A stretch of DNA of 24,000 nucleotides from Caulobacteraceae bacterium (GCA_050261415.1 JBLNDG010000132.1:21050-45049), one strand, 5' to 3'. Positions 1,283 to 14,360 are shown, counted from the stretch's first letter. A program made the numbers and translations. Notes: generated from the letters alone by a model not told the origin.

Positions 1283-1296
1283 TATTATGACAAGAT

Positions 1297-1458
1297 ATTC
1301 TTCGTTAGGTGAGGCTCCTATACAGATATATGCTGCTGCCCGGAAACATCGAGAGATGCCAATGGGTCAACAGGTATTACCGAAATAAGGTTCTACTTAA
1401 TGTAGCTGGATGTAGGTGATCCAAAGCTGTATAGTGCCGAAGCTCTGCGAGTGAAGAA
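1297..1458 (+). promoter_or_regulatory. M-box (ykoK leader) Mg2+-sensing riboswitch aptamer
   Basis: TTCGTTAGGTGAGGCTCCT...GCTGCTGCCC...GAGAGATGCCAATGGGTCAACAG...TAAGGT...GTAGCTGGATG...ATAGTGCCGAAGCTCTGCGAGTGAAG is nearly collinear with the B. subtilis mgtE M-box as I recall it (UUCGUUAGGUGAGGCUCCU...GCUGCUGCCC...GACGCUAAUGGGUCAACAG...UAAGGU...GCAGCUGGAUG...ACAGUGCUAAAGCUCUACGAUUGAAG). It lies upstream of a Mg2+ channel gene. Confidence 0.92.
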
Positions 1459-1483
1459 GGAATAGTGTTTTTGTTATCTATTT

Positions 1484-6325: not shown

Positions 6326-7147
6326 TTATCTCATCTTTACAAATTTCTTTTCAATCCATGCAACTGTCAAGTACATTAATGCAGCTGCCGCTGCGAGTAT
6401 AAGCACGCTGGTCATAACAAGGTCCATCTTGAATACCTGCCCGCCATATATTATAAGGTATCCGAGTCCGGCTTTTGATACGAGAAACTCACCTACTATG
6501 ACCCCTACCAAAGACAGCCCCACATTTATCTTCAAGGTGGAGATTATTTCAGGTATGCTTGATGGCAGTATTACCTTTTTTAATATCTGAAGTTTGGTCG
6601 CTCCAAAGGTTTTCAGAAGTTTTATCTTGTCCTCGTCGCAGCTTTTGAAAGCCTGGTATACGTTCAATATGGTTACTATTATAGAAACCAATAATGCCAT
6701 TACTATTATGGAGCCTGTTGTGCCTCCTATCCATACCAGTATAATAGGACCAAGTGCGGTTTTGGGAAGCGCATTCAGCACAACAAGATAAGGATCAAGG
6801 ACTTTTGCTATGAATTTAGACCACCAAAGTATTACTGCTATTAGAGTGCCGAGAATTGTTCCGGACAGGAAGCCTACTATTGTTTCATATATGGTCACTC
6901 CGGTATGCAAGAACAGCGAACCGTCGCCGGAAAGGCTTACAATTGTCCTTATTACCCTTGAGGGCTGGCTCATAATGAAGGGGTCAATCCATTTCATACG
7001 GGCTGCTATTTCCCAAAGCGCGAAAAAGAGTACCAGAAGTATTATTCTTGATATAGTGACGGCATTTTTTGTCATATTCTCCCTTTTTATAAATTCAATA
7101 TGCTCTTCTGAGTGCTCGGCTGCAGGTAAAACGTATTCTTCAGACAT
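6326..7147 (-). CDS. ABC transporter permease, NitT/TauT (sulfonate/nitrate/taurine-type) family
   Basis: 273 aa, about 6 TM segments. ALPKTALGPIILVWIGGTTGSIIVMALL resembles the BPD-transport EAA-loop region of SsuC/TauC-type permeases. The start ATG overlaps the stop of the upstream ATPase remnant (ATGTCTGA). Confidence 0.85.
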   Translation of the reverse strand: MSEEYVLPAAEHSEEHIEFIKRENMTKNAVTISRIILLVLFFALWEIAARMKWIDPFIMSQPSRVIRTIVSLSGDGSLFLHTGVTIYETIVGFLSGTILGTLIAVILWWSKFIAKVLDPYLVVLNALPKTALGPIILVWIGGTTGSIIVMALLVSIIVTILNVYQAFKSCDEDKIKLLKTFGATKLQILKKVILPSSIPEIISTLKINVGLSLVGVIVGEFLVSKAGLGYLIIYGGQVFKMDLVMTSVLILAAAAALMYLTVAWIEKKFVKMR

Positions 7148-7334
7148 GCACGTCCAGCTCCTTCCATATTTTATTGAAATAGAACCTGAATTCTGGAGCT
7201 TCTCTGCATTTTATCGGTGTTTTGCATTCTGCTGTCAGCTGTATTTCATGCTCAGACCTCAATTCTGCAGGCCTTTTAGTCAGAACTATTACTCTGTCGG
7301 ACATAGAAACGGCTTCTGCAATGTCCACAATAAT
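7140..7334 (-). pseudogene. 3' remnant of the cognate ABC ATPase gene, truncated by prophage insertion
   Basis: Only the tail ...DIAEAVSMSDRVIVLTKRPAELRSEHEI... (compare SsuB-type ...[25 protein letters not shown]...) is present. There is no Walker A, Q-loop, signature or Walker B upstream. Similarity stops at about codon D (7325..7323). The rest of track ORF 7140..7379 reads into the recombinase gene end. Confidence 0.8.
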
Positions 7335-7347
7335 GCGATAATACCGC

Positions 7348-8961
7348 TTAAGCACCGTGGATGCTGATGTGGATGGCATTTCCGTCCCACGTTATTTTAC
7401 TCAGTATATTCTTGATATATTTCCTTTTTTCGTTTATACCCAGCTTGTCGAAAACTTCAGGAAAGTTTTTTATTGCCTGGTTAACCAGGTCTATATTCAT
7501 TTGCTCTATGTGATTACGTTCTCTCTCGCCCTTCAAGCGTTCAATCGAATACTTAAGTTCAGATGTCTTTTGATCAAGCTTCTCAATCTGGGATATTATG
7601 TACTTGGCAGCAGTGGAGTTTGAATTCTGAGATAGCTGTAATGTCAAGTTTTCAATGGCCTTTTCATTTTCTTCCAGCTCTTTATTAAATGTCTGCAGCT
7701 TTTTAGAATGGATTTTGTCCTGTTTGGCAGTTTTACTTTTGTTTTGGTTAAGAGCGTCAGAGAACTCTCCGGTACCGAGTGAAAGCTTCATAAGTTCATC
7801 CTTAACGAATTTGTCTGCATCCTTACCAACTACATTCTTGTTGGCACATCTTACACCATGGGACCTTTCCTTGGTAGTGCATATATAGTAATAATTTCGC
7901 TCCGGCTTTGTTCGCTTGCTGCCATAGCCCAAACGCATAAGGGCACCGCAATTGCATCTTATAAGGCCGGAAAGCAATCCGATTTTGCTTGTTTCATACC
8001 TGGGAGCTTTATCCTTGTTCTGTTCAATTATGTTCTGCACCCTTATCCAATCAGAACTGGGGATGATACCTTTATGCTTTGATATTGCAACTATCCACTC
8101 AGTCATGTTTTTAACACGGTTCCTTTTTCCTTTAACCTCCTGGGTCTTATTATAGGAAAGTACTCCATGAGAACCGTTGAATTCTTTTTTATCACTTGCT
8201 ATATCAACATTATTGCGTGAGAAATAGTCATAGAGAAGCTCATCAGCTACTGCATATACCGGGTTGGAAAGTATCATTTTAAGTGCGGATTTATCAAAGT
8301 AGTTTCCATTCTTACTCTTAACTCCATTTTCAGCGCACCAGATTTCAAGCTTGGATATGCTCCCGAGCCTGAGGTACTGGTTATATAGATTTCTGACCAG
8401 CTCCAGTTCTCCCGGAATACCGGTCAGTTTATACATTTTCTTTTCATTCATCTCGTTGTCATAATAGGGTACCGGCTCGCTTTTAAACCCGGTTGGCGTT
8501 TTGCCGCCGGTCCAGCGGCCGGCTCGGGCAAGCTGCAGCATATTATCTCTGATGCGCTCTGCAATTGTCTCACGTTCAAGCTGTGCGAATACAGAGGCAA
8601 TATACATCATAGCGCGACCAAGCGGGGTAGAAGTATCAAACTGCTCCCTAATTGATATAAAAGATATGTTGTATTCCTGGAGAGAGTTGATGAGGTTGGA
8701 GAAGTCGGAAATATTCCTGCTTATTCTGTCAAGGCGGTAGCAAACTATGGCATCGAACATATTTGCCTTGGCATCCTTGAGCATTTTCTGGAACTTCGGA
8801 CGGTCAACATTTCCCCCTGAGAAGCCTTCATCTTCATATACAAATGCTTCATCCACCTTGAAGTTCTTTTCGATATACTCACGGCACATAGTGATCTGGT
8901 TTTCGATGGACTCCCCTATGCCGGTAAATTTTGATTTACGACTGTATATTGCAAATTTCAT
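7348..8961 (-). CDS. large serine recombinase (prophage integrase)
   Basis: 537 aa. N-terminal resolvase domain (AIYSRKS ... YEDEGFSGGNVDRPKFQKML ... VCYRLDRISRN), recombinase domain, Cys-rich zinc-ribbon region (CNCGALM ... YYYICTTKERSHGVRCANK) and a C-terminal coiled coil. Confidence 0.95.
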   Translation of the reverse strand: MKFAIYSRKSKFTGIGESIENQITMCREYIEKNFKVDEAFVYEDEGFSGGNVDRPKFQKMLKDAKANMFDAIVCYRLDRISRNISDFSNLINSLQEYNISFISIREQFDTSTPLGRAMMYIASVFAQLERETIAERIRDNMLQLARAGRWTGGKTPTGFKSEPVPYYDNEMNEKKMYKLTGIPGELELVRNLYNQYLRLGSISKLEIWCAENGVKSKNGNYFDKSALKMILSNPVYAVADELLYDYFSRNNVDIASDKKEFNGSHGVLSYNKTQEVKGKRNRVKNMTEWIVAISKHKGIIPSSDWIRVQNIIEQNKDKAPRYETSKIGLLSGLIRCNCGALMRLGYGSKRTKPERNYYYICTTKERSHGVRCANKNVVGKDADKFVKDELMKLSLGTGEFSDALNQNKSKTAKQDKIHSKKLQTFNKELEENEKAIENLTLQLSQNSNSTAAKYIISQIEKLDQKTSELKYSIERLKGERERNHIEQMNIDLVNQAIKNFPEVFDKLGINEKRKYIKNILSKITWDGNAIHISIHGA

Positions 8962-8975
8962 AACTCAACCTCCGT

Positions 8976-9001
8976 ATAAAACAAAATGCCCGAAGGCATT
9001 A
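8976..9001 (-). terminator. intrinsic terminator after the three-Cys gene, directly abutting the integrase SD
   Basis: Reverse strand: TAATGCCTTCGGGCATTTTGTTTTA. Stem AATGCC/GGCATT with TTCG loop (8985..9000) plus T-run. GGAGG of the integrase follows about 4 nt later. Confidence 0.75.
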
Positions 9002-9775
9002 TATGCATTGGATATTTTCCGTAATAGTTCCATCTTTAATGTGATACTCCATTTCATAGCTATTACAGAACTCAATTGTTTGATATGCTAATGTGTTAAA
9101 AAACTCCTTATACCCTTTGTATTTATTTATAAGCGGATTGTAATTCAACCTACCGAAAATAATTCTGTCAACAAATTTTATTGATTCTAATATTTCGCCA
9201 TAATCCTGATCTACTATATTTGGTGTTGGATAAGGTTCTATGCTTACCCATGTCTTACAATCATGATCATGCAAATACTTTAAATTTCTTATTCTATCAG
9301 TATAAGGTGCAGATCCGGGTTCATATTTTCGCCTAAAGTTTTCATCCAGCGATACAAGTGTAATACCATACTCATTGTCGGGTGACAGGTCGACTAATTC
9401 TTTAGGGAGTAGACCTTTTGTTAGAGCAGTGGTCTTTATACCATTGCTATTGAGCATCTTTATGATTTCTATGCTCATATTAGATATTTCATTGTAACCA
9501 TACATAAATGGATCTGTCGTAAAACATAGGTGTACAGACTTGATATCTTTCTTGTATCTAGGTATTTCTTTCATCAGGATATCAAGTGCATTAATAGCAA
9601 GCTTTGGTTTACACCATTCCTCATAATTTTTTACTTTCCCGAAACGCTTTGCTAACATCATTGCATAACAAGGGTATTTGCAGCCATGAGAACACCCAAG
9701 GACATGATTTATAGTATAATCGCCATACTCAACTCCGGTCTTATAAAGCATTGATTTCCTAGTGATTGCATCCAT
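8999..9775 (-). CDS. three-Cys-motif, radical-SAM-like protein (SplB/DUF5131-like architecture)
   Basis: 258 aa. N-terminal HVLGCSHGCKYPCYAMMLAKRFG resembles the GCxxxCxYCYA cluster loop of SplB-type and Gp37/Gp68-type radical-SAM-like proteins, but with C-x3-C-x3-C spacing (C28, C32, C36). Later VHLCFTTDPF and IKTTALTKG resemble their core strands. Adjacent to a TcmP gene. Confidence 0.6.
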   Translation of the reverse strand: MDAITRKSMLYKTGVEYGDYTINHVLGCSHGCKYPCYAMMLAKRFGKVKNYEEWCKPKLAINALDILMKEIPRYKKDIKSVHLCFTTDPFMYGYNEISNMSIEIIKMLNSNGIKTTALTKGLLPKELVDLSPDNEYGITLVSLDENFRRKYEPGSAPYTDRIRNLKYLHDHDCKTWVSIEPYPTPNIVDQDYGEILESIKFVDRIIFGRLNYNPLINKYKGYKEFFNTLAYQTIEFCNSYEMEYHIKDGTITENIQCI

Positions 9776-9808
9776 TTTTATCCCTCTCTATTTTTACTTT
9801 ATAATACC

Positions 9809-9817
9809 ATTATACCA
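9809..9817 (-). promoter_or_regulatory. extended -10 element (TGGTATAAT) upstream of the three-Cys gene
   Basis: Reverse strand ...TTATGGTATAATGGTATTATAAAG... lies 30-40 nt before the ATG at 9775 and after a short hairpin AAGAAC-N4-GTTCTT (9829..9844). No convincing -35. Confidence 0.35.
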
Positions 9818-9844
9818 TAATTTAGATAAGAACATACGTTCTTG

Positions 9845-10948
9845 TTAAAAAATTATAATGTCATTGCCAGAAAGCCCTCTAGGTGTTTTTGATGTTATTC
9901 TCTTTACTGCAATCTTCCCTTCTTTTTCTAATGTTTTAAGTGCTTCTCTATAATGCTTTTCAACGCTTTGTGTAAGTATAAAAGTATTTTCGAGAATATT
10001 GTCATATGTAATCCTCTTACCTTTTGGGAAAAACTTCATAAGATATGTTTTTAGTGATTCTACATTAGGATCAAATAACCGAAGTTGTGACCTGGACTCC
10101 TGATATTGTAACTCCTTTGGACCAAGGTAAGCATAGTGCTCATTTTGATTGAACATTATTGATTTCATGATTGCCAAGCCCTTGAAATGATTTGTAGCAT
10201 ATATGAGGTAGTACAATGTTGAACATTTACTGTCTTCACAAATTCTAAATGGGAATACATATTTTGCACAGTTTTCTTCAATGAGCCTGCGCATATAAAG
10301 GTTACGCAATGCATGTTCTCTTTCAGTACCAGATAAATCAATATATTCCTTCCATTCACTGCAACCAAAAAGAGTATCGAAGTTTTTTTCCTGATGTTTT
10401 ACCGATAAAAAACGGTTCATTTCTCTGAACATAAAGTTAAAGAATACTTCGGTGCGAGGGATGCTTAATATCCTTTTAACAGTTTCAAATGGTACACCTG
10501 TATATCCGAATGGATCAATAAAGAAGAAGGAGGGAACAAGATTATCCTTTGTTTTATCAAGTAGTTCATTAATGGCAGTATCAAAATCCTTATTCTCGTG
10601 AAAGACTGAGTGTACTGACGGAAAATCCTTTCTTCTTTCTGTGACAACTTCAACTAGGTTATCATAATTGTCCTTATCTCTTTCAACAAAGTAGCAAATG
10701 AATTTCAAATTACGAACTGACTTAAAATGTGAAACTTCTTGGCATGCCTGCATTGCAAGAAGAGGAGAACCATCACTGCCATTAGCATACTGCCCTCGGC
10801 CGGCAAATCCGTCTACATACATAATAGTATCGTTATTGCTCCCAAGTATAGGTATCCATGCTTCCAGGTACTTTTTCATTAAGGTATGCTTTACTTGAGC
10901 ATGCTCAGAATAAGTCCATTTATTTTCGTCGTTATTTTTTAATGCCAT
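9845..10948 (-). CDS. three-Cys-motif partner protein TcmP-like (RlmJ-like methyltransferase fold suspected)
   Basis: 367 aa. EHAQVKHTLMKKYLEAW...IMYVDGFAGRGQYANGSDGSPLLA...FFFIDPFGYTG. By eye this parallels E. coli RlmJ as I recall it: NHADVLKHT...LYLDTHAGAGRYQLGS...PGSPLIA...LILIDPPYE. SD GGAGTG lies 7 nt before the ATG, 13 nt after the upstream stop. Confidence 0.6.
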   Translation of the reverse strand: MALKNNDENKWTYSEHAQVKHTLMKKYLEAWIPILGSNNDTIMYVDGFAGRGQYANGSDGSPLLAMQACQEVSHFKSVRNLKFICYFVERDKDNYDNLVEVVTERRKDFPSVHSVFHENKDFDTAINELLDKTKDNLVPSFFFIDPFGYTGVPFETVKRILSIPRTEVFFNFMFREMNRFLSVKHQEKNFDTLFGCSEWKEYIDLSGTEREHALRNLYMRRLIEENCAKYVFPFRICEDSKCSTLYYLIYATNHFKGLAIMKSIMFNQNEHYAYLGPKELQYQESRSQLRLFDPNVESLKTYLMKFFPKGKRITYDNILENTFILTQSVEKHYREALKTLEKEGKIAVKRITSKTPRGLSGNDIIIF

Positions 10949-10961
10949 CGCTTAACACTCC

Positions 10962-12038
10962 TTACATATACCTCTTAACAACCTCAATAATATTATCTTT
11001 ATAGTTATAAATATCATCAATACTCTCAATTTGATATGTAATTGGGTTTTTGTTATCGTCAGGTAAATATATGTGCTTCTTGTTTCCATCTAGTTTAAGC
11101 CTGCATATCCATTTCCACGAATTATTGTCGTAAAGAATCCCAAAATACGATTGAGTGTCTTTGTAGCTTATTTTCTCCTTTGGCACTATATCTCTTAGGA
11201 ATGTTTTTATTGTGTAGAAAAATTCCATTTCTTCTTCTGTTGTTATTATTGCTGGCTTGCTTACCGGCTCAGGCTCAAATGTAGACACTTCCGCACTTGG
11301 AGCAGACTTCTGCCCTTCTTGGATATCATTGTTCTTTAGAGCAGATGTTATTTTTTCATTCATCAACTCATTTACGAATTGATTCATTGACTTTCTCACA
11401 ATCTCTCTAAACCTGGTAATGACATTTTGTGTTTTTACCCCTGTATAAACTTTTCCGGATATGAATTTTACAAACTCATCTTCAGGTGCTTTTAACTGTG
11501 TAGTCATGTACTTAATTATTTCATTTGAATATTTGAGCTCGGAAGCAGCATTGAAAATAGTATCAATATCAAATGATTGTTTGTGGAATTTTTTTAGCTC
11601 ATTAATATAAGATTCTTTTATATCTAATAAGTTAATCTCTAAGAAAGGTTTAGCATCCATCTTGTTCTGCTCATCCAAGTCGGTATAAAACCTATATATA
11701 ATTCCATTTGTCAAGATTGCAAATTTCGCTGTAGAAGTGCCGAAATATCGGAATAGTTGGGAATCATACTTATCAAGATTCTCTCCGCACCATTTTGCCT
11801 CAATTAATATTACAGGGTTATTATCCTTCATTATTGCATAATCAACTTTTTCACCCTTTTTTATCCCTACGTCAGCAGTATACTCAGGTACAAACTCATG
11901 TGGATTAAAAACATCATAACCGAGCATTTGGAAGAAAGGCATAATCATTGATGTTTTAGTAGCTTCCTCTGTTGCGATGTTATCCTTTATACCCTCGATC
12001 CTTTTTGAAAACTGTTTCAGCTCATCAATAAAATCCAT
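10962..12038 (-). CDS. HsdR N-terminal-domain (COG4748-type) PD-(D/E)xK nuclease-fold protein
   Basis: 358 aa. EEATKTSMIMPFFQMLGYDVFNPHEFVPEY...KVDYAIMKDNNPVILIEAKW matches the type I restriction enzyme R N-terminal domain pattern (E..t....I.P.l..LGy ... D-x13-E-x-K: D66, E80, K82). No helicase or methylase domain attached. Confidence 0.75.
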   Translation of the reverse strand: MDFIDELKQFSKRIEGIKDNIATEEATKTSMIMPFFQMLGYDVFNPHEFVPEYTADVGIKKGEKVDYAIMKDNNPVILIEAKWCGENLDKYDSQLFRYFGTSTAKFAILTNGIIYRFYTDLDEQNKMDAKPFLEINLLDIKESYINELKKFHKQSFDIDTIFNAASELKYSNEIIKYMTTQLKAPEDEFVKFISGKVYTGVKTQNVITRFREIVRKSMNQFVNELMNEKITSALKNNDIQEGQKSAPSAEVSTFEPEPVSKPAIITTEEEMEFFYTIKTFLRDIVPKEKISYKDTQSYFGILYDNNSWKWICRLKLDGNKKHIYLPDDNKNPITYQIESIDDIYNYKDNIIEVVKRYM

Positions 12039-12142
12039 ACTTATCCCCCTCTATAAATTTATCTTCTTATTAATAAATATCGCACATGTAGCGACATTGT
12101 TCGACAAAATATTACTAAATAAGTACAATTTACCATGTATGG

Positions 12143-12172
12143 TTATATAAAAAGTTCCGTTAGGAACCTTTT
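12143..12172 (-). terminator. intrinsic terminator after the ImmA-like gene
   Basis: Reverse strand AAGGTTCC-TAAC-GGAACTTT (8 bp, one G-U) followed by TTATATA. Overlaps the stop codon at 12160..12162. Confidence 0.65.
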
Positions 12173-13263
12173 GTTGCAGCAGCTTTATCAGCCGTTTGAT
12201 TGGCAACTTGACTTTCTTGATATTTTCTCCAGTGAGGCAGAAGCCCTTGAAGATAAAAGGATGTTTTATTGCCGCAGCATTCACAATAACGGGCGTTGCC
12301 ATCAGGGATATTACCGCAGCTGAATTTATATTCTTGATTACCCATAATATCAATACTGCGGATCTCGTTTGTACACTCCTGAATTAAATAGGTATTACAA
12401 TTTGGACAATAATGTTCATCGGCTATTTCCGTATTTCCGCATGTAGGGCAGGAGAGGGCATGTCCATATTCATCTGTCTCTATTGCATACAGGTATTCTA
12501 CCGGCTCTTTATCTCCTGTGAAGTTTGTCAAAAGTGAGCAGCCGCATATGGCACAATACTTGGCATACGGGTTATTCGTAATATTTCCGCAGACAATACA
12601 TGTTATATTTTTGAATATATCAAATAATTTATAAGTATTTTCAATAGAATTAGGGTAGCTTACAGGTTCGGGCTCTGTATCAGCGATTTGTGGCTCAATG
12701 GGTACAACTTTATTTTCTTGAGAAGAGCTGCCGCTGAGTATAAGCAGGGAATCTTTCTTTCTCTGTATTTTCAGTGAGTCCAGCCTGTTAAGCAACGACT
12801 CCCATGATACGTTAAAAAGATTGTAAAGCTTACCGATATTAGCAGCAGTAGATGGAGGATGTTGCTTTATATATTTATATACCCATTCTTCAGGCATTAA
12901 TAGCTCTGCAGCAAATGCGTTAGCTTCTTTATCAATATAAGCACAGCCTATTTCATCTGATAGATATTTCTTATAATTTATAAAGTGTTTAAGAATAATA
13001 TGGCCGGCTTCATGGGCATATGTCCAGGTGGACATATCCTTATATTCTACATTATTTATATATATTTTATATTTGCCGCTTATAAACCTTGTAAACCCTT
13101 TTTCATCAGGATCGCTGAAGTTATATAGCTGCCCGAGCCGGCATACAATGCTTTTGGGGTGAACTGGCGGCTCTTCAATATTAAAGCTTCTTAATGTATT
13201 TTGAGCAATGGACTTTATTTGTTTTTTCCGTGAAGTGGTAAGTAGTAGGCTCATGAATGTCAC
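12160..13263 (-). CDS. ImmA/IrrE-family zinc metallopeptidase fused to three zinc-ribbon modules
   Basis: 367 aa. HEXXH site YAHEAGHIILKH followed by EANAFAAELLMP (typical ImmA/IrrE). C-terminal half carries CIVCGN-x10-CAICG, CPTCGN-x9-CPNCN and SCGN-x9-CECCG. Confidence 0.8.
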   Translation of the reverse strand: MTFMSLLLTTSRKKQIKSIAQNTLRSFNIEEPPVHPKSIVCRLGQLYNFSDPDEKGFTRFISGKYKIYINNVEYKDMSTWTYAHEAGHIILKHFINYKKYLSDEIGCAYIDKEANAFAAELLMPEEWVYKYIKQHPPSTAANIGKLYNLFNVSWESLLNRLDSLKIQRKKDSLLILSGSSSQENKVVPIEPQIADTEPEPVSYPNSIENTYKLFDIFKNITCIVCGNITNNPYAKYCAICGCSLLTNFTGDKEPVEYLYAIETDEYGHALSCPTCGNTEIADEHYCPNCNTYLIQECTNEIRSIDIMGNQEYKFSCGNIPDGNARYCECCGNKTSFYLQGLLPHWRKYQESQVANQTADKAAATKGS

Positions 13264-13329: not shown

Positions 13330-13456
13330 CCCATACTTACGGATTATTGGCAGGCGGTAAACTCTGCATCTCTTTTGACCACGAGGGCGCGTGGGGAACC
13401 TTTCCCACCTCAAATAATCCTATTTAATAGTATTAACAAAGTTTATTTTTTATTTC
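13330..13456 (-). ncRNA. candidate structured RNA (sRNA or cis leader of the ImmA-like gene)
   Basis: GC-rich island in AT-rich spacer. 8-bp closing helix GGATTATT (13341..13348) / AATAATCC (13413..13420) encloses hairpins 13350..13367, 13379..13394 and 13395..13405. Upstream on the minus strand: TTGTAT (13491..13486), 17 nt, TATAAT (13468..13463). Downstream: the terminator at 13297..13329. No known RNA family recognised. Confidence 0.3.
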
Positions 13457-13505: not shown

Positions 13506-13883
13506 CTAAATTTTATGGTATCTGCCTTTATTTATTCTTGCTTTGCACTTGCTATCATTTATCATATAAAAACTTGATATCGATAACGGACCCGATGTAT
13601 TGTTTATCTTTAGCCCAATTGTAACAAAATCATCAATTTTTTTAACAACTTCGATACAGTTTGCTTTATTAGGATAAATCCCGCAATACTCTGGAGATGA
13701 AAGTATTTGAGGAAGCAGCTGAAAATATTTAAAAAAATCCTTTCCATGCTCTGATCTGGCGTGTCTGATTGCTCCAGGAGATATAAAGACACGCTTGTCC
13801 ACAATTGAAAGATTTAAAATAGTTATTACTTTATTATTTAGGTCACACACATATTGGGAAGTTACAGCATATTCATCTAACAT
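13506..13883 (-). CDS. hypothetical protein, possible Barnase/EndoU/ColicinE5-D/RelE-like (PBECR-type) nuclease fold
   Basis: 125 aa, 41 nt downstream of the repressor gene, same strand. VFISPGAIRHARSEHGKDF...ILSSPEY...ANCIEVVKKIDD-FVTIGLK recalls the pattern of phage PBECR domains (H-x-x-x-x-x-H then Pd.v...n.i.fvk). Weak, by-eye assignment only. Confidence 0.5.
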   Translation of the reverse strand: MLDEYAVTSQYVCDLNNKVITILNLSIVDKRVFISPGAIRHARSEHGKDFFKYFQLLPQILSSPEYCGIYPNKANCIEVVKKIDDFVTIGLKINNTSGPLSISSFYMINDSKCKARINKGRYHKI

Positions 13884-13924: not shown

Positions 13925-14335
13925 TTAACTTTGCTCCTCATCATCAACAGGCCAGGCGGATTCAATGATCTTCAACAGCCGTTCTTTATCTTTCTGGGTA
14001 AGGGGTTTAGCGTCACGGTTTATTATTGTGCCGAGCTGGTCGAATATATCCTCATTCTTTTTATTATCATGTTTATTTGTTTTATTAATAAATGTTGTTT
14101 CAGATTCAATGTAACCAGCAGCTTCCATTAATTGCTTATAAGTAACTCCATTATATGCTTTATCGGCAAATTTTCTTATAGTTTCTGGATTAGGAGATGT
14201 ATCTATTAATTCTCTCACCAATCTAGAAATATGGGCTGCACTTACTCCGCAATGTAAAGCATATTGATTAATTGACCTTTCTCCTTTTGCTCTTAAAAGA
14301 AGCTCGGAAAACTTATGTTTATCAAAGTGATTCAT
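13925..14335 (-). CDS. XRE-family HTH repressor (CI-like)
   Basis: HTH SINQYALHCGVSAAHISRLVRE near the N-terminus. Divergent from a Cro-like gene across an operator-rich spacer. Start ATG 14335 (GAGGTG 6 nt upstream) preferred over track start 14344, a GTG within the SD. Confidence 0.8.
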   Translation of the reverse strand: MNHFDKHKFSELLLRAKGERSINQYALHCGVSAAHISRLVRELIDTSPNPETIRKFADKAYNGVTYKQLMEAAGYIESETTFINKTNKHDNKKNEDIFDQLGTIINRDAKPLTQKDKERLLKIIESAWPVDDEEQS

Positions 14336-14360
14336 GAATAACACCTCACTATATACCTAT

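What the first reader, a model, noticed from the sequence alone, without database searches (positions are those of the whole stretch)
8976..12172. Integrase-proximal three-gene island: PD-(D/E)xK nuclease (COG4748 type) + TcmP (RlmJ-like fold) + variant three-Cys radical-SAM-like protein; candidate uncharacterised restriction/modification-type defence module
SEEN: three co-oriented minus-strand genes (12038->8999) sit between the prophage integrase and the ImmA/repressor immunity genes. This is the slot where temperate phages usually carry accessory (moron/defence) cargo. The block is insulated by intrinsic terminators on both sides (12143..12172 and 8976..9001). The first two ORFs are 13 nt apart with an SD, which is operon-like. 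The third has its own TGGTATAAT. Gene 1 has the HsdR-N pattern with D66...E80-A-K82 but no helicase, methylase or specificity partner. Gene 2 has YVDGFAGRGQY, GSPLLA and IDPFGY, which by eye parallel RlmJ motifs (DTHAGAGRY, GSPLIA, IDPPYE); DPPY is replaced by DPFG. Gene 3 has a GCSHGCKYPCYA three-Cys loop. ESTABLISHED (from memory): TcmP (TIGR04474, 'three-Cys-motif partner protein') is defined only by co-occurrence with a three-Cys radical-SAM-like protein and has no assigned function. HsdR-N/COG4748 proteins are stand-alone PD-(D/E)xK nuclease-fold proteins. INFERENCE: a nuclease, a methyltransferase-fold protein and a radical-SAM-like enzyme in one insulated prophage cassette suggests a self/non-self nucleic-acid modification plus cleavage system. 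I do not know of this trio being described as a functional unit.
Basis: partly seen in the sequence, partly recalled or inferred. Interest (0 to 1): 0.85.

Follow-up and report, generated by a model that had tools for sequence, protein, structure and literature searches.

The report
Prophage nuclease plus TcmP–radical-SAM pair
The three genes are real, but they are two separate cargo units in a prophage: a common phage nuclease gene, followed by a widespread, uncharacterised methyltransferase-like/radical-SAM gene pair that is already listed as a candidate anti-phage system.

Summary
The fold calls hold. g1 is an HsdR-N PD-(D/E)xK protein. g2 is TcmP, with a class-I methyltransferase fold and a C-terminal wHTH. 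g3 is a radical-SAM protein whose model is closest to spore photoproduct lyase and which has a conserved CX3CX3C motif.

The trio is not a conserved unit. TcmP is adjacent or fused to a three-Cys radical-SAM-like protein in 74 of 76 informative genome loci. g1 is absent from all of them and from the loci of the closest TcmP relatives. Conversely, g1 homologues sit after repressor/ImmA in many prophages that have no TcmP or rSAM. Only one related prophage (L104) has all three genes, and there TcmP is replaced by a 27%-identical short form.

The pair matches the PADLOC candidates PDC-M30/M41, which have not been validated. In other genomes it is often embedded in R-M operons.

New here:
- A LexA-box-like GAAC-N4-GTTC lies just upstream of the g3 promoter in this prophage clade.
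- TcmP's DPFG is also the motif at the equivalent position in Trm1.

The function of the pair remains inferred. Verdict: new member of a known, uncharacterised kind.

The parts
12154..12167 (-). Hairpin GTTCC-TAAC-GGAAC flanked by an A-run and a T-run. It overlaps the ImmA stop codon and is a terminator-like boundary upstream of g1.
   Evidence: -10.3 kcal/mol, z -4.1
10962..12038 (-). g1: stand-alone HsdR-N type PD-(D/E)xK protein (D66, E80-x-K82) with an uncharacterised C-terminal half. PHROG 4225 'endonuclease'. It is a recurrent lysogeny-module gene and is independent of the pair.
9845..10948 (-). g2: TcmP (TIGR04474). Class-I SAM-methyltransferase fold with DGFAGRG (motif I), E89 after beta2, a DPFG motif IV of the kind seen in Trm1, and a C-terminal GMT-wHTH domain (290-348).
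9830..9841 (.). Perfect palindrome GAAC-N4-GTTC (LexA/Cheo-box-like) in the g2-g3 spacer, 12 nt upstream of the extended -10. It is the only such site in the 24-kb window.
9809..9817 (-). Extended -10 promoter element TGgTATAAT in front of g3.
   Evidence: sequence; a -35-like TTAACA at 9848..9843
8999..9775 (-). g3: three-Cys radical-SAM protein with an SPL-like partial TIM barrel. The variant motif GCSHGCxYPCYA (CX3CX3C) is conserved across its subfamily.
8985..9000 (-). Intrinsic-terminator-like hairpin plus T-run overlapping the g3 stop codon, 24 nt before the integrase start.
7348..8961 (-). Context: large serine recombinase (prophage integrase) at the prophage end, inserted into an ABC-transporter ATPase gene.
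12160..13263 (-). Context: ImmA/IrrE-type M78 metalloprotease with C-terminal zinc ribbons (immunity module).

Best explanation
The 3.2-kb block consists of two juxtaposed accessory units in the lysogeny module of a serine-integrase prophage of a low-GC, Clostridia-like host.

Unit 1 is g1, a stand-alone HsdR-N PD-(D/E)xK protein. In many temperate phages it follows the repressor/ImmA genes. It is probably a lysogen-expressed nuclease (inferred).

Unit 2 is the mobile two-gene cassette TcmP + three-Cys radical-SAM protein (g2-g3). It occupies the variable cargo slot between g1 and the integrase.

Shown:
- The two proteins of the pair are almost always adjacent or fused across bacteria and archaea.
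- TcmP has a class-I methyltransferase fold with motifs of the kind found in exocyclic-amine methyltransferases (DGFAGRG; DPFG as in Trm1), plus a wHTH.
- g3 has a radical-SAM fold closest to spore photoproduct lyase.
- The pair is repeatedly embedded in R-M operons, plasmids and prophage lysogeny modules.

Inferred mechanism:
1. TcmP binds SAM and a nucleic acid and presents a flipped purine. The target is DNA given the wHTH and R-M context, but RNA is not excluded.
2. The rSAM partner uses a [4Fe-4S]/SAM-derived radical to alter the nucleic acid chemically.
3. The pair acts as a self-contained anti-phage (or DNA-marking) module, with TcmP as the fast-evolving specificity part and the rSAM as the conserved catalytic part.
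4. In this prophage clade the rSAM gene has its own promoter overlapped by a LexA-box-like operator. Full activity would then be confined to the SOS response or prophage induction.
For: Composite nature:
- TcmP is adjacent to an rSAM-like or DUF5131 gene, or fused to one, in 74 of 76 informative genome loci (11 fused, 44 + 19 adjacent).
- g1 is absent from these loci and from L085-L092.
- g1 homologues occur without the pair in 19 phage records and 17 of 18 IMG/VR loci. They sit directly after repressor/ImmA and before the integrase, for example in Streptococcus phage IPP25 and an Acetoanaerobium phage.
- Neighbours of g1 include M78 (6), HTH (5), integrase (5) and other cargo genes such as Abi_2, RhuM and Tad2-like.
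- Window versus L104: g1 and g3-integrase share 79-83% DNA identity. The TcmP gene plus spacer is replaced exactly between the g1 stop and the g3 start, by a 285-aa TcmP with 27% identity.

Pair identity:
- TIGR04474 scores 201 bits and PDC-M30A matches at 4e-45.
- The TcmP model has pLDDT 88.8. Its best Foldseek matches are class-I methyltransferases, with Trm1 3AXS on top. Trm1 chains carry LDPFG(S/T)P.
- The g3 model has pLDDT 88.9 and TM 0.67-0.68 to spore photoproduct lyase.
- CX3CX3C with the inserted Pro is conserved in 27 loci and in a 30-sequence alignment.

Defence or mobile context:
- DNA methyltransferases or R-M genes are the immediate upstream neighbour in roughly a quarter of the 69 loci scanned (N6_N4_Mtase 7, Eco57I 6, UPF0020 4, N6_Mtase 2; some proteins match two models).
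- Tightly packed Mod-TcmP-rSAM-Res operons occur in L038, L041 and L072. Mod-Res-TcmP-rSAM occurs in L124, a type IIG gene followed by the pair in L122, and type I R-M plus FokI in L087.
- TcmP is found on 92 plasmids.
- It also sits in prophage lysogeny slots in L089, L091, L092 and Gordonia phage Easley.

SOS gating:
- The window holds a single GAAC-N4-GTTC, at 9830..9841 (0.16 expected).
- Equivalent boxes lie about 54-73 nt upstream of the rSAM start in L089/L090, L091, L092 and L104. The background is 0.05 per kb.
Against: - No experiment exists for any TcmP/three-Cys pair in the literature searched. PDC-M30/M41 are predictions only.
- g3 hits the PADLOC B-gene models only weakly (2e-6 and 8e-5).
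- g3 is unusually conserved for a defence gene, at about 70% identity across more than 100 clusters.
- The CX3CX3C spacing is non-canonical, so cluster or SAM binding is unproven.
- The SOS box, the SPL-like fold and LexA-like neighbours fit DNA repair equally well.
- The g1-g2 gap of 13 nt with a shared SD means g1 and g2 are probably co-transcribed here, so a lineage-specific functional link cannot be excluded.
- The closest structural and motif relatives of TcmP (Trm1, RlmJ) are RNA methyltransferases, so the substrate could be RNA.
Confidence: 0.5

Rival explanations
1. One reading: g1, g2 and g3 form one three-gene restriction/modification-type system. TcmP+rSAM mark self nucleic acid and the HsdR-N nuclease cleaves unmarked (or marked) DNA.
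For: - The g1-g2 gap is 13 nt with an SD, and hairpins lie on both sides of the block.
- The same gene order is present in a related prophage, L104.
- Elsewhere the pair lies beside restriction components.
Against: - g1 is absent from 79 genome loci with TcmP and from all 55-58% identical TcmP relatives.
- g1 occurs alone in the same slot in many prophages.
- In L104 g1 is separated from TcmP by 210 nt, and TcmP has been swapped for a 27%-identical form.
Confidence: 0.08
2. The pair is an SOS-induced DNA-lesion repair or damage-tolerance module. TcmP flips out a damaged base and the SPL-like rSAM reverses the lesion by radical chemistry. A prophage would carry it to repair its own and the host's DNA when DNA damage induces it.
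For: - The g3 model is closest to spore photoproduct lyase (TM 0.68).
- JGI labels homologues 'DNA repair photolyase'.
- A LexA-box-like operator lies in front of g3 in the prophage clade.
- LexA/S24-type regulators lie directly upstream of TcmP in other phyla.
- SplB/COG1533 rSAMs are reported SOS-regulon members (PMC8565304).
- g3 is highly conserved.
Against: - The pair is repeatedly embedded inside R-M operons and is found on plasmids.
- TcmP is extremely diverse and can be swapped while g3 stays constant.
- The SOS box is absent from the operonic, non-prophage pairs.
- The S24 regulators could simply be CI-type prophage repressors.
Confidence: 0.2
3. The pair is a nucleic-acid modification module without a restriction role of its own. 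One version: it makes a new DNA mark on the induced phage genome as anti-restriction, or adds an extra mark inside R-M operons. Another version: it modifies tRNA or rRNA.
For: - TcmP has an intact SAM-binding motif set, and its DPFG is the motif found in Trm1.
- There is weak RlmJ motif similarity.
- Expression of the rSAM would be timed with induction, and the rSAM lies directly upstream of the integrase.
- The pair is adjacent to DNA methyltransferases.
Against: - In phage records TcmP is found only in temperate Gordonia phages, in the lysogeny slot next to the immunity repressor. It is not in lytic phages, where hypermodification genes would be expected.
- No conserved reader or nuclease partner was found.
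- The chemistry is unknown.
Confidence: 0.2

Closest known systems
PADLOC phage-defence candidates PDC-M30 and PDC-M41 (TcmP + DUF5131; guilt-by-embedding; Payne et al. bioRxiv 10.1101/2024.01.29.577857)
   Same: g2 matches PDC-M30A over its full length (4e-45) and PDC-M41A (6e-18). The two-gene architecture is the same, and in other genomes the pair is embedded in R-M operons.
   Different: The partner here is the g3-type CX3CX3C SPL-like rSAM, not DUF5131. It hits the B-gene models only at 2e-6 and 8e-5, and PF07505 scores 20.8 bits, below its 28.9 cutoff. The candidates themselves have not been validated experimentally.
TIGR04474 TcmP, 'three-Cys-motif partner protein'
   Same: g2 scores 201 bits against a cutoff of 53 and lies next to a three-Cys protein.
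   Different: None for membership. The family has no assigned function. The long form found here adds a C-terminal GMT-wHTH domain that the short form in L104 lacks.
Spore photoproduct lyase SplB and COG1533-type radical-SAM 'DNA repair photolyases' (PA0069 / Rv2578c families)
   Same: It is the best structural match (TM 0.67-0.68 to 4FHC/4FHF). g3 shares the GCxHxC..CYA-type cluster loop. Like reported SplB genes, it may be under SOS control.
   Different: Identity is 12%, and g3 is shorter (258 versus 340 aa). Its motif is CX3CX3C with an inserted Pro rather than CX3CX2C. NCBIfam scores are far below the equivalog cutoffs (35-40 bits against 360-430). Unlike SplB, it is obligatorily paired with TcmP.
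Trm1 (tRNA m2,2G26 methyltransferase) and RlmJ (23S rRNA m6A2030 methyltransferase)
   Same: All have a class-I methyltransferase fold. Trm1 3AXS is the top Foldseek hit, and Trm1 has the same (I/L)DPFG motif. The RlmJ motifs DTHAGAGRY and GSP align with DGFAGRGxY and GSP of TcmP.
   Different: Foldseek TM is only 0.38 with 14% identity. There is no sequence-level hit to any PDB chain. hhalign to RlmJ gives 20% probability, and there is no Pfam RlmJ hit. TcmP also has a wHTH and an rSAM partner.
HsdR N-terminal nuclease domain of type I R-M enzymes, and stand-alone PHROG 4225 'endonuclease' proteins
   Same: g1 has the HSDR_N domain with D...ExK and matches PHROG 4225 over its full length.
   Different: There is no helicase, HsdM or HsdS. 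The C-terminal 200 aa have no family or PDB match. No PADLOC system matches apart from a weak N-terminal domain hit.

Membership tests
TcmP (TIGR04474) | HMM score above the curated cutoff | tested here: met
   201 bits against a cutoff of 53, covering residues 15-266.
TcmP (TIGR04474) | Adjacent to a protein with a three-Cys (radical-SAM-like) motif | tested here: met
   g3 lies 69 nt downstream and has CSHGCKYPC. The pairing or a fusion is seen in 74 of 76 informative loci.
Radical SAM superfamily (PF04055) | Pfam score above the gathering threshold, and a partial TIM-barrel fold | tested here: met
   39.9 bits against 29.5. The model has pLDDT 88.9, and its top 33 Foldseek matches are all radical-SAM superfamily enzymes, with SPL at TM 0.68.
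Radical SAM superfamily (PF04055) | Canonical CX3CX2C cluster motif | tested here: not met
   The motif is CX3CX3C (C28, C32, C36) with an invariant Pro35. This spacing is conserved in the subfamily.
Radical SAM superfamily (PF04055) | [4Fe-4S] cluster and reductive SAM cleavage | not testable with these tools
   Requires anaerobic biochemistry.
DUF5131 (PF07505; the partner in PDC-M30/M41) | Pfam score above the gathering threshold | tested here: not met
   20.8 bits against 28.9, covering only residues 13-89.
PADLOC PDC-M30 / PDC-M41 candidate system | Both the A and the B gene models are matched | tested here: inconclusive
   The A gene is strong (4e-45). The B gene is weak (2e-6 and 8e-5). 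PADLOC's own thresholds could not be applied.
PADLOC PDC-M30 / PDC-M41 candidate system | Anti-phage activity | not testable with these tools
   No experimental report was found.
HsdR_N PD-(D/E)xK nuclease domain (PF04313 / PF13588) | Pfam score above threshold, and a catalytic D...(D/E)xK | tested here: met
   55.2 and 29.9 bits. D66 and E80-A-K82 are read from the sequence.
Type I R-M system | HsdR helicase motor plus HsdM and HsdS | tested here: not met
   No such domains are found in g1 or in neighbouring genes.
RlmJ family (PF04378) | Sequence-profile or structural match | tested here: inconclusive
   None of 37 TcmP sequences hits the Pfam model, even at E<=10. hhalign gives 20% probability over 60 columns (motif I, GSP, beta2). 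RlmJ is not in the Foldseek top 50.
   The trio is found only in the window and in L104.
LexA (SOS) regulon of Firmicutes | GAAC-N4-GTTC operator overlapping the promoter | tested here: met
   The site is at 9830..9841, 12 nt upstream of the -10, and recurs in related loci. The consensus itself is recalled from memory.
LexA (SOS) regulon of Firmicutes | LexA binding and induction by DNA damage | not testable with these tools
   Needs EMSA or a reporter assay.

The most novel reading that the evidence does not exclude
TcmP plus its three-Cys partner would be a new kind of radical-SAM-dependent nucleic-acid-targeting immune or marking system. A methyltransferase-fold protein resembling Trm1/RlmJ selects and flips a purine. 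An SPL-like radical enzyme then performs chemistry not yet known on DNA (or tRNA). In prophages the radical enzyme is held under LexA control. In this lineage the neighbouring HsdR-N nuclease could have been recruited as a reader.
Probability: 0.2. Interest if true: 0.85.

Novelty: new member of a known kind. Interest (0 to 1): 0.45.

Why it matters
TcmP and its three-Cys partners form a very large family: about 9,200 clusters at 50% identity for TcmP and thousands of g3-type proteins. The family is mobile and spans bacteria and archaea, yet no activity is known for it. It is already flagged as a defence candidate but has not been tested.

This window offers a compact copy with its native regulation, and several concrete handles:
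- a separable pair, so g1 is not needed in a first test;
- a predicted SOS switch on the radical enzyme;
- a natural TcmP allele swap (window versus L104) with which to test specificity;
- a motif IV of the Trm1 kind that points to an exocyclic-amine target.

If the pair proves to be a radical-SAM-based nucleic-acid modifier or restriction factor, it would add new chemistry to prokaryotic immunity. If it proves to be a repair system, it would extend SPL-type repair beyond spores.

Tried and rejected
Searches that found nothing or were inconclusive:
- Megablast of the block against phage genomes found no match.
- Profile or sequence searches of TcmP, g3 and g1 against PDB sequences found no hits. 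A 135-aa TcmP consensus returned only chance hits.
- RlmJ homology was tested three ways. hhalign against single-sequence RlmJ gave 2% probability. A Pfam scan of 37 TcmPs at relaxed E-values gave no PF04378 hit. hhalign against a 14-sequence RlmJ alignment gave 20%. The last homologue search returned only relatives at 83% identity or more, so that profile stayed shallow.
- Literature searches for TcmP, DUF5131, PF07505, PDC-M30/M41, GMT-wHTH and Trm1+DPFG found no functional study.

Hypotheses considered and rejected:
- g1 as a conserved third partner of the pair.
- The pair as a generally SOS-regulated module. The box is absent from operonic, non-prophage pairs.
- DPFG as a degenerate, inactive DPPY. 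Trm1 has the same motif.

Full report
OBSERVATION

They lie between a large serine recombinase (7348..8961) and an ImmA/M78 gene (12160..13263).

The sequence shows the following:
- a 13-nt g1-g2 gap with an SD;
- a 69-nt g2-g3 gap with TGgTATAAT at 9817..9809;
- D66 and E80-A-K82 in g1;
- YVDGFAGRGQY, GSPLLA and IDPFGY in g2;
- GCSHGCKYPCYA in g3.

Both boundary hairpins fold and are followed by T-runs. To the left of the integrase are host genes: an ABC permease and a truncated ABC ATPase, a HAD phosphatase, FtsW/RodA, PBP2, and CorA behind an M-box riboswitch. The block is therefore at a prophage end. GC content is 34% in the block and 38-42% in the host flank.

FAMILY AND FOLD

- g1 matches Pfam HSDR_N (1e-14) and PHROG 4225 'endonuclease' over its full length (8e-138). 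It matches no PADLOC system.
- g2 matches TIGR04474 TcmP (201 bits), a C-terminal GMT-wHTH domain, and PADLOC PDC-M30A (4e-45) and PDC-M41A.
- g3 matches Pfam Radical_SAM above threshold. It matches DUF5131 and the PDC-M30B/M41B models only weakly.

The AlphaFold model of TcmP (pLDDT 88.8) is a class-I methyltransferase fold. The top PDB match is Aquifex Trm1 (3AXS, E 1e-5, TM 0.38), and RlmJ is not among the first 50 matches. Solved Trm1 chains carry (I/V)DLDPFG(S/T)P. TcmP's invariant IDPFG is therefore a motif IV of the kind seen in Trm1, not a broken DPPY.

The support is weak, with hhalign probability 20% and E 1e-3.

The g3 model (pLDDT 88.9) is a radical-SAM barrel closest to spore photoproduct lyase (TM 0.67-0.68).

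THE PAIR IS THE UNIT

A scan of one genome per GTDB species returned 80 TcmP loci from many bacterial and archaeal phyla. Of 76 informative loci, 74 have TcmP next to, or fused with, a three-Cys protein. The partners fall into several subfamilies:
- the g3 type, with GC(S/A)HGCxYPCYA (CX3CX3C, invariant Pro);
- an SPL-like type, with GCPFDCAWCY, often fused to the TcmP C-terminus (about 700 aa);
- DUF5131, with CX6CX2C;
- a haloarchaeal type present as two paralogues.

g3-type proteins from gut Clostridia that are about 70% identical are also always preceded by a TcmP of 284-376 aa, confirmed by TIGR04474. TcmP has about 9,200 clusters at 50% identity and occurs on 92 plasmids.

g1 IS INDEPENDENT

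No g1 homologue lies near TcmP in the 79 genome loci; there is one weak HsdR_N hit 5 kb away. None lies in the loci of the closest TcmP relatives (55-58% identity; L085-L092).

Conversely, g1 homologues (33-62% identity) occur in 19 phage records and 17 of 18 IMG/VR loci without TcmP or g3. They typically sit directly after the repressor and ImmA and before the integrase. In those elements the space between g1 and the integrase holds other cargo, such as Abi_2, RhuM and Tad2-like genes.

Only L104 has all three genes. It is a related prophage at the same host site, with integrase 82%, g1 89% and g3 88% identical. There the TcmP gene and the spacer are replaced precisely between the g1 stop and the g3 start, by a 285-aa TcmP that lacks the wHTH and is 27% identical. 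It lies 210 nt downstream of g1.

CONTEXT OF THE PAIR ELSEWHERE

The gene immediately upstream of the pair is a DNA methyltransferase or R-M gene in roughly a quarter of the 69 loci scanned. Examples:
- Translationally packed type III Mod-TcmP-rSAM-Res operons (L038, L041, L072).
- Mod-Res-TcmP-rSAM (L124).
- Type IIG-like enzymes followed by the pair (L039, L050, L122).
- Type I R-M plus FokI followed by the pair (L087).

This embedding pattern is how PADLOC's PDC candidates were derived (10.1101/2024.01.29.577857). The pair also sits in lysogeny modules next to integrases (L089, L091, L092) and, in Gordonia phage Easley, next to the immunity repressor.

A REGULATORY FEATURE NOT NOTED BEFORE

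The only perfect GAAC-N4-GTTC in the window is at 9830..9841, 12 nt upstream of the g3 -10 element (0.16 expected in 24 kb). Equivalent boxes (GAAC-N4-GTTT) lie about 54-73 nt upstream of the rSAM start in L089/L090, L091, L092 and L104. Degenerate versions occur in L085 and L087. The background rate is 0.05 per kb.

The motif matches the Firmicutes LexA operator consensus; that consensus is recalled from memory. In several of the prophage-borne cases (the window, L104, L089/L090, L092) the rSAM gene lies directly upstream of the integrase on the same strand. In L091 an ImmA gene lies between them.

The box is absent from operonic, non-prophage pairs. In other phyla, LexA/S24-type regulators sit directly upstream of TcmP. 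SplB-type rSAMs are reported members of SOS regulons (PMC8565304).

INTERPRETATION

Shown:
- The block is composite.
- g2-g3 is a member of the TcmP/three-Cys pair family.
- The fold assignments are as described above.

Inferred:
- TcmP supplies SAM-dependent recognition of a flipped purine in a nucleic acid.
- The conserved rSAM supplies radical chemistry.
- The pair works on its own, most likely in defence or DNA marking.
- In this prophage clade, rSAM expression is LexA-gated.

DNA repair and pure modification roles remain serious rivals, and RNA targets are not excluded. No experimental study of the family was found.

VERDICT

The trio hypothesis is not supported. The pair is a new member of a known but uncharacterised candidate system. 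It has a non-DUF5131 partner and a probable SOS switch.

Noticed in passing
window 9830-9841 (with the -10 element at 9809-9817); L089, L091, L092, L104:8107-8118: A LexA/Cheo-box-like palindrome GAAC-N4-GTTC lies just upstream of the g3 promoter. It is the only such site in the window and recurs upstream of the rSAM gene in related prophage-borne pairs. This suggests SOS-gated expression of the radical-SAM gene, and possibly of the integrase downstream.
   Followed up: partly
window 9776-10961 versus L104:7078-8171: Exact allelic replacement of the TcmP gene plus spacer between two related prophages (long 367-aa form with wHTH versus short 285-aa form, 27% identity). The flanking g1 and g3-integrase regions keep 79-83% DNA identity.
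   Followed up: yes
L038, L041, L072, L124, L122, L039, L050, L087: TcmP-rSAM pairs are embedded inside or directly behind type III (Mod-TcmP-rSAM-Res), type IIG-like and type I R-M operons in unrelated phyla.
   Followed up: partly
L002, L020, L034, L065 (cluster c2): LexA-like regulators (HTH or LexA_DNA_bind plus Peptidase_S24) are encoded directly upstream of TcmP on the same strand.
   Followed up: partly
window 13343-13418 (-): Rfam 'skipping-rope' sRNA motif (55 bits against a gathering score of 36.7) lies in the gap between the ImmA gene and the PBECR3 gene of the immunity region.
   Followed up: no
window 13506-13883 (-): A PBECR3 (Barnase/EndoU/ColicinE5-D/RelE-like) nuclease gene sits between the HTH repressor (13925-14344) and ImmA. 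It may be a toxin-like cargo gene inside the immunity module.
   Followed up: no
window 12160-13263 (-): The ImmA/M78 protein is unusually long (367 aa) and has a Cys-rich C-terminal half with a weak, below-threshold double-zinc-ribbon match. It also matches the PADLOC CapP and RmrA models, as expected for M78 regulators.
   Followed up: no
window 7140-7379 and 6326-7147 (-); L104:10499-11603: The prophage is inserted into the 3' part of an ABC-transporter ATPase gene, next to its permease gene. The related prophage L104 occupies the same site.
   Followed up: partly
window 1294-1462 (+): An M-box (Mg2+) riboswitch lies upstream of a CorA-type transporter gene (1765-2697). This is an ordinary host feature.
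   Followed up: no
whole window; P0001: The 100%-identical TcmP in NCBI is labelled 'MAG: Caulobacteraceae bacterium'. The window has 34-42% GC, Firmicutes-like genes and a Firmicutes-type LexA-box-like motif, so the source contig is probably mis-binned.
   Followed up: no
L025, L049, L074, L081: Haloarchaeal TcmP loci carry two tandem paralogous rSAM genes of 427-451 aa (GCxHGCKFCY) instead of one.
   Followed up: no
L084 (Gordonia phage Easley gp39/gp38): TcmP (annotated 'methyltransferase') lies immediately after the immunity repressor. A divergently oriented 251-aa gene follows it and weakly resembles 'radical SAM mobile pair protein A'. This is the same lysogeny-slot placement, in an actinophage.
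   Followed up: partly
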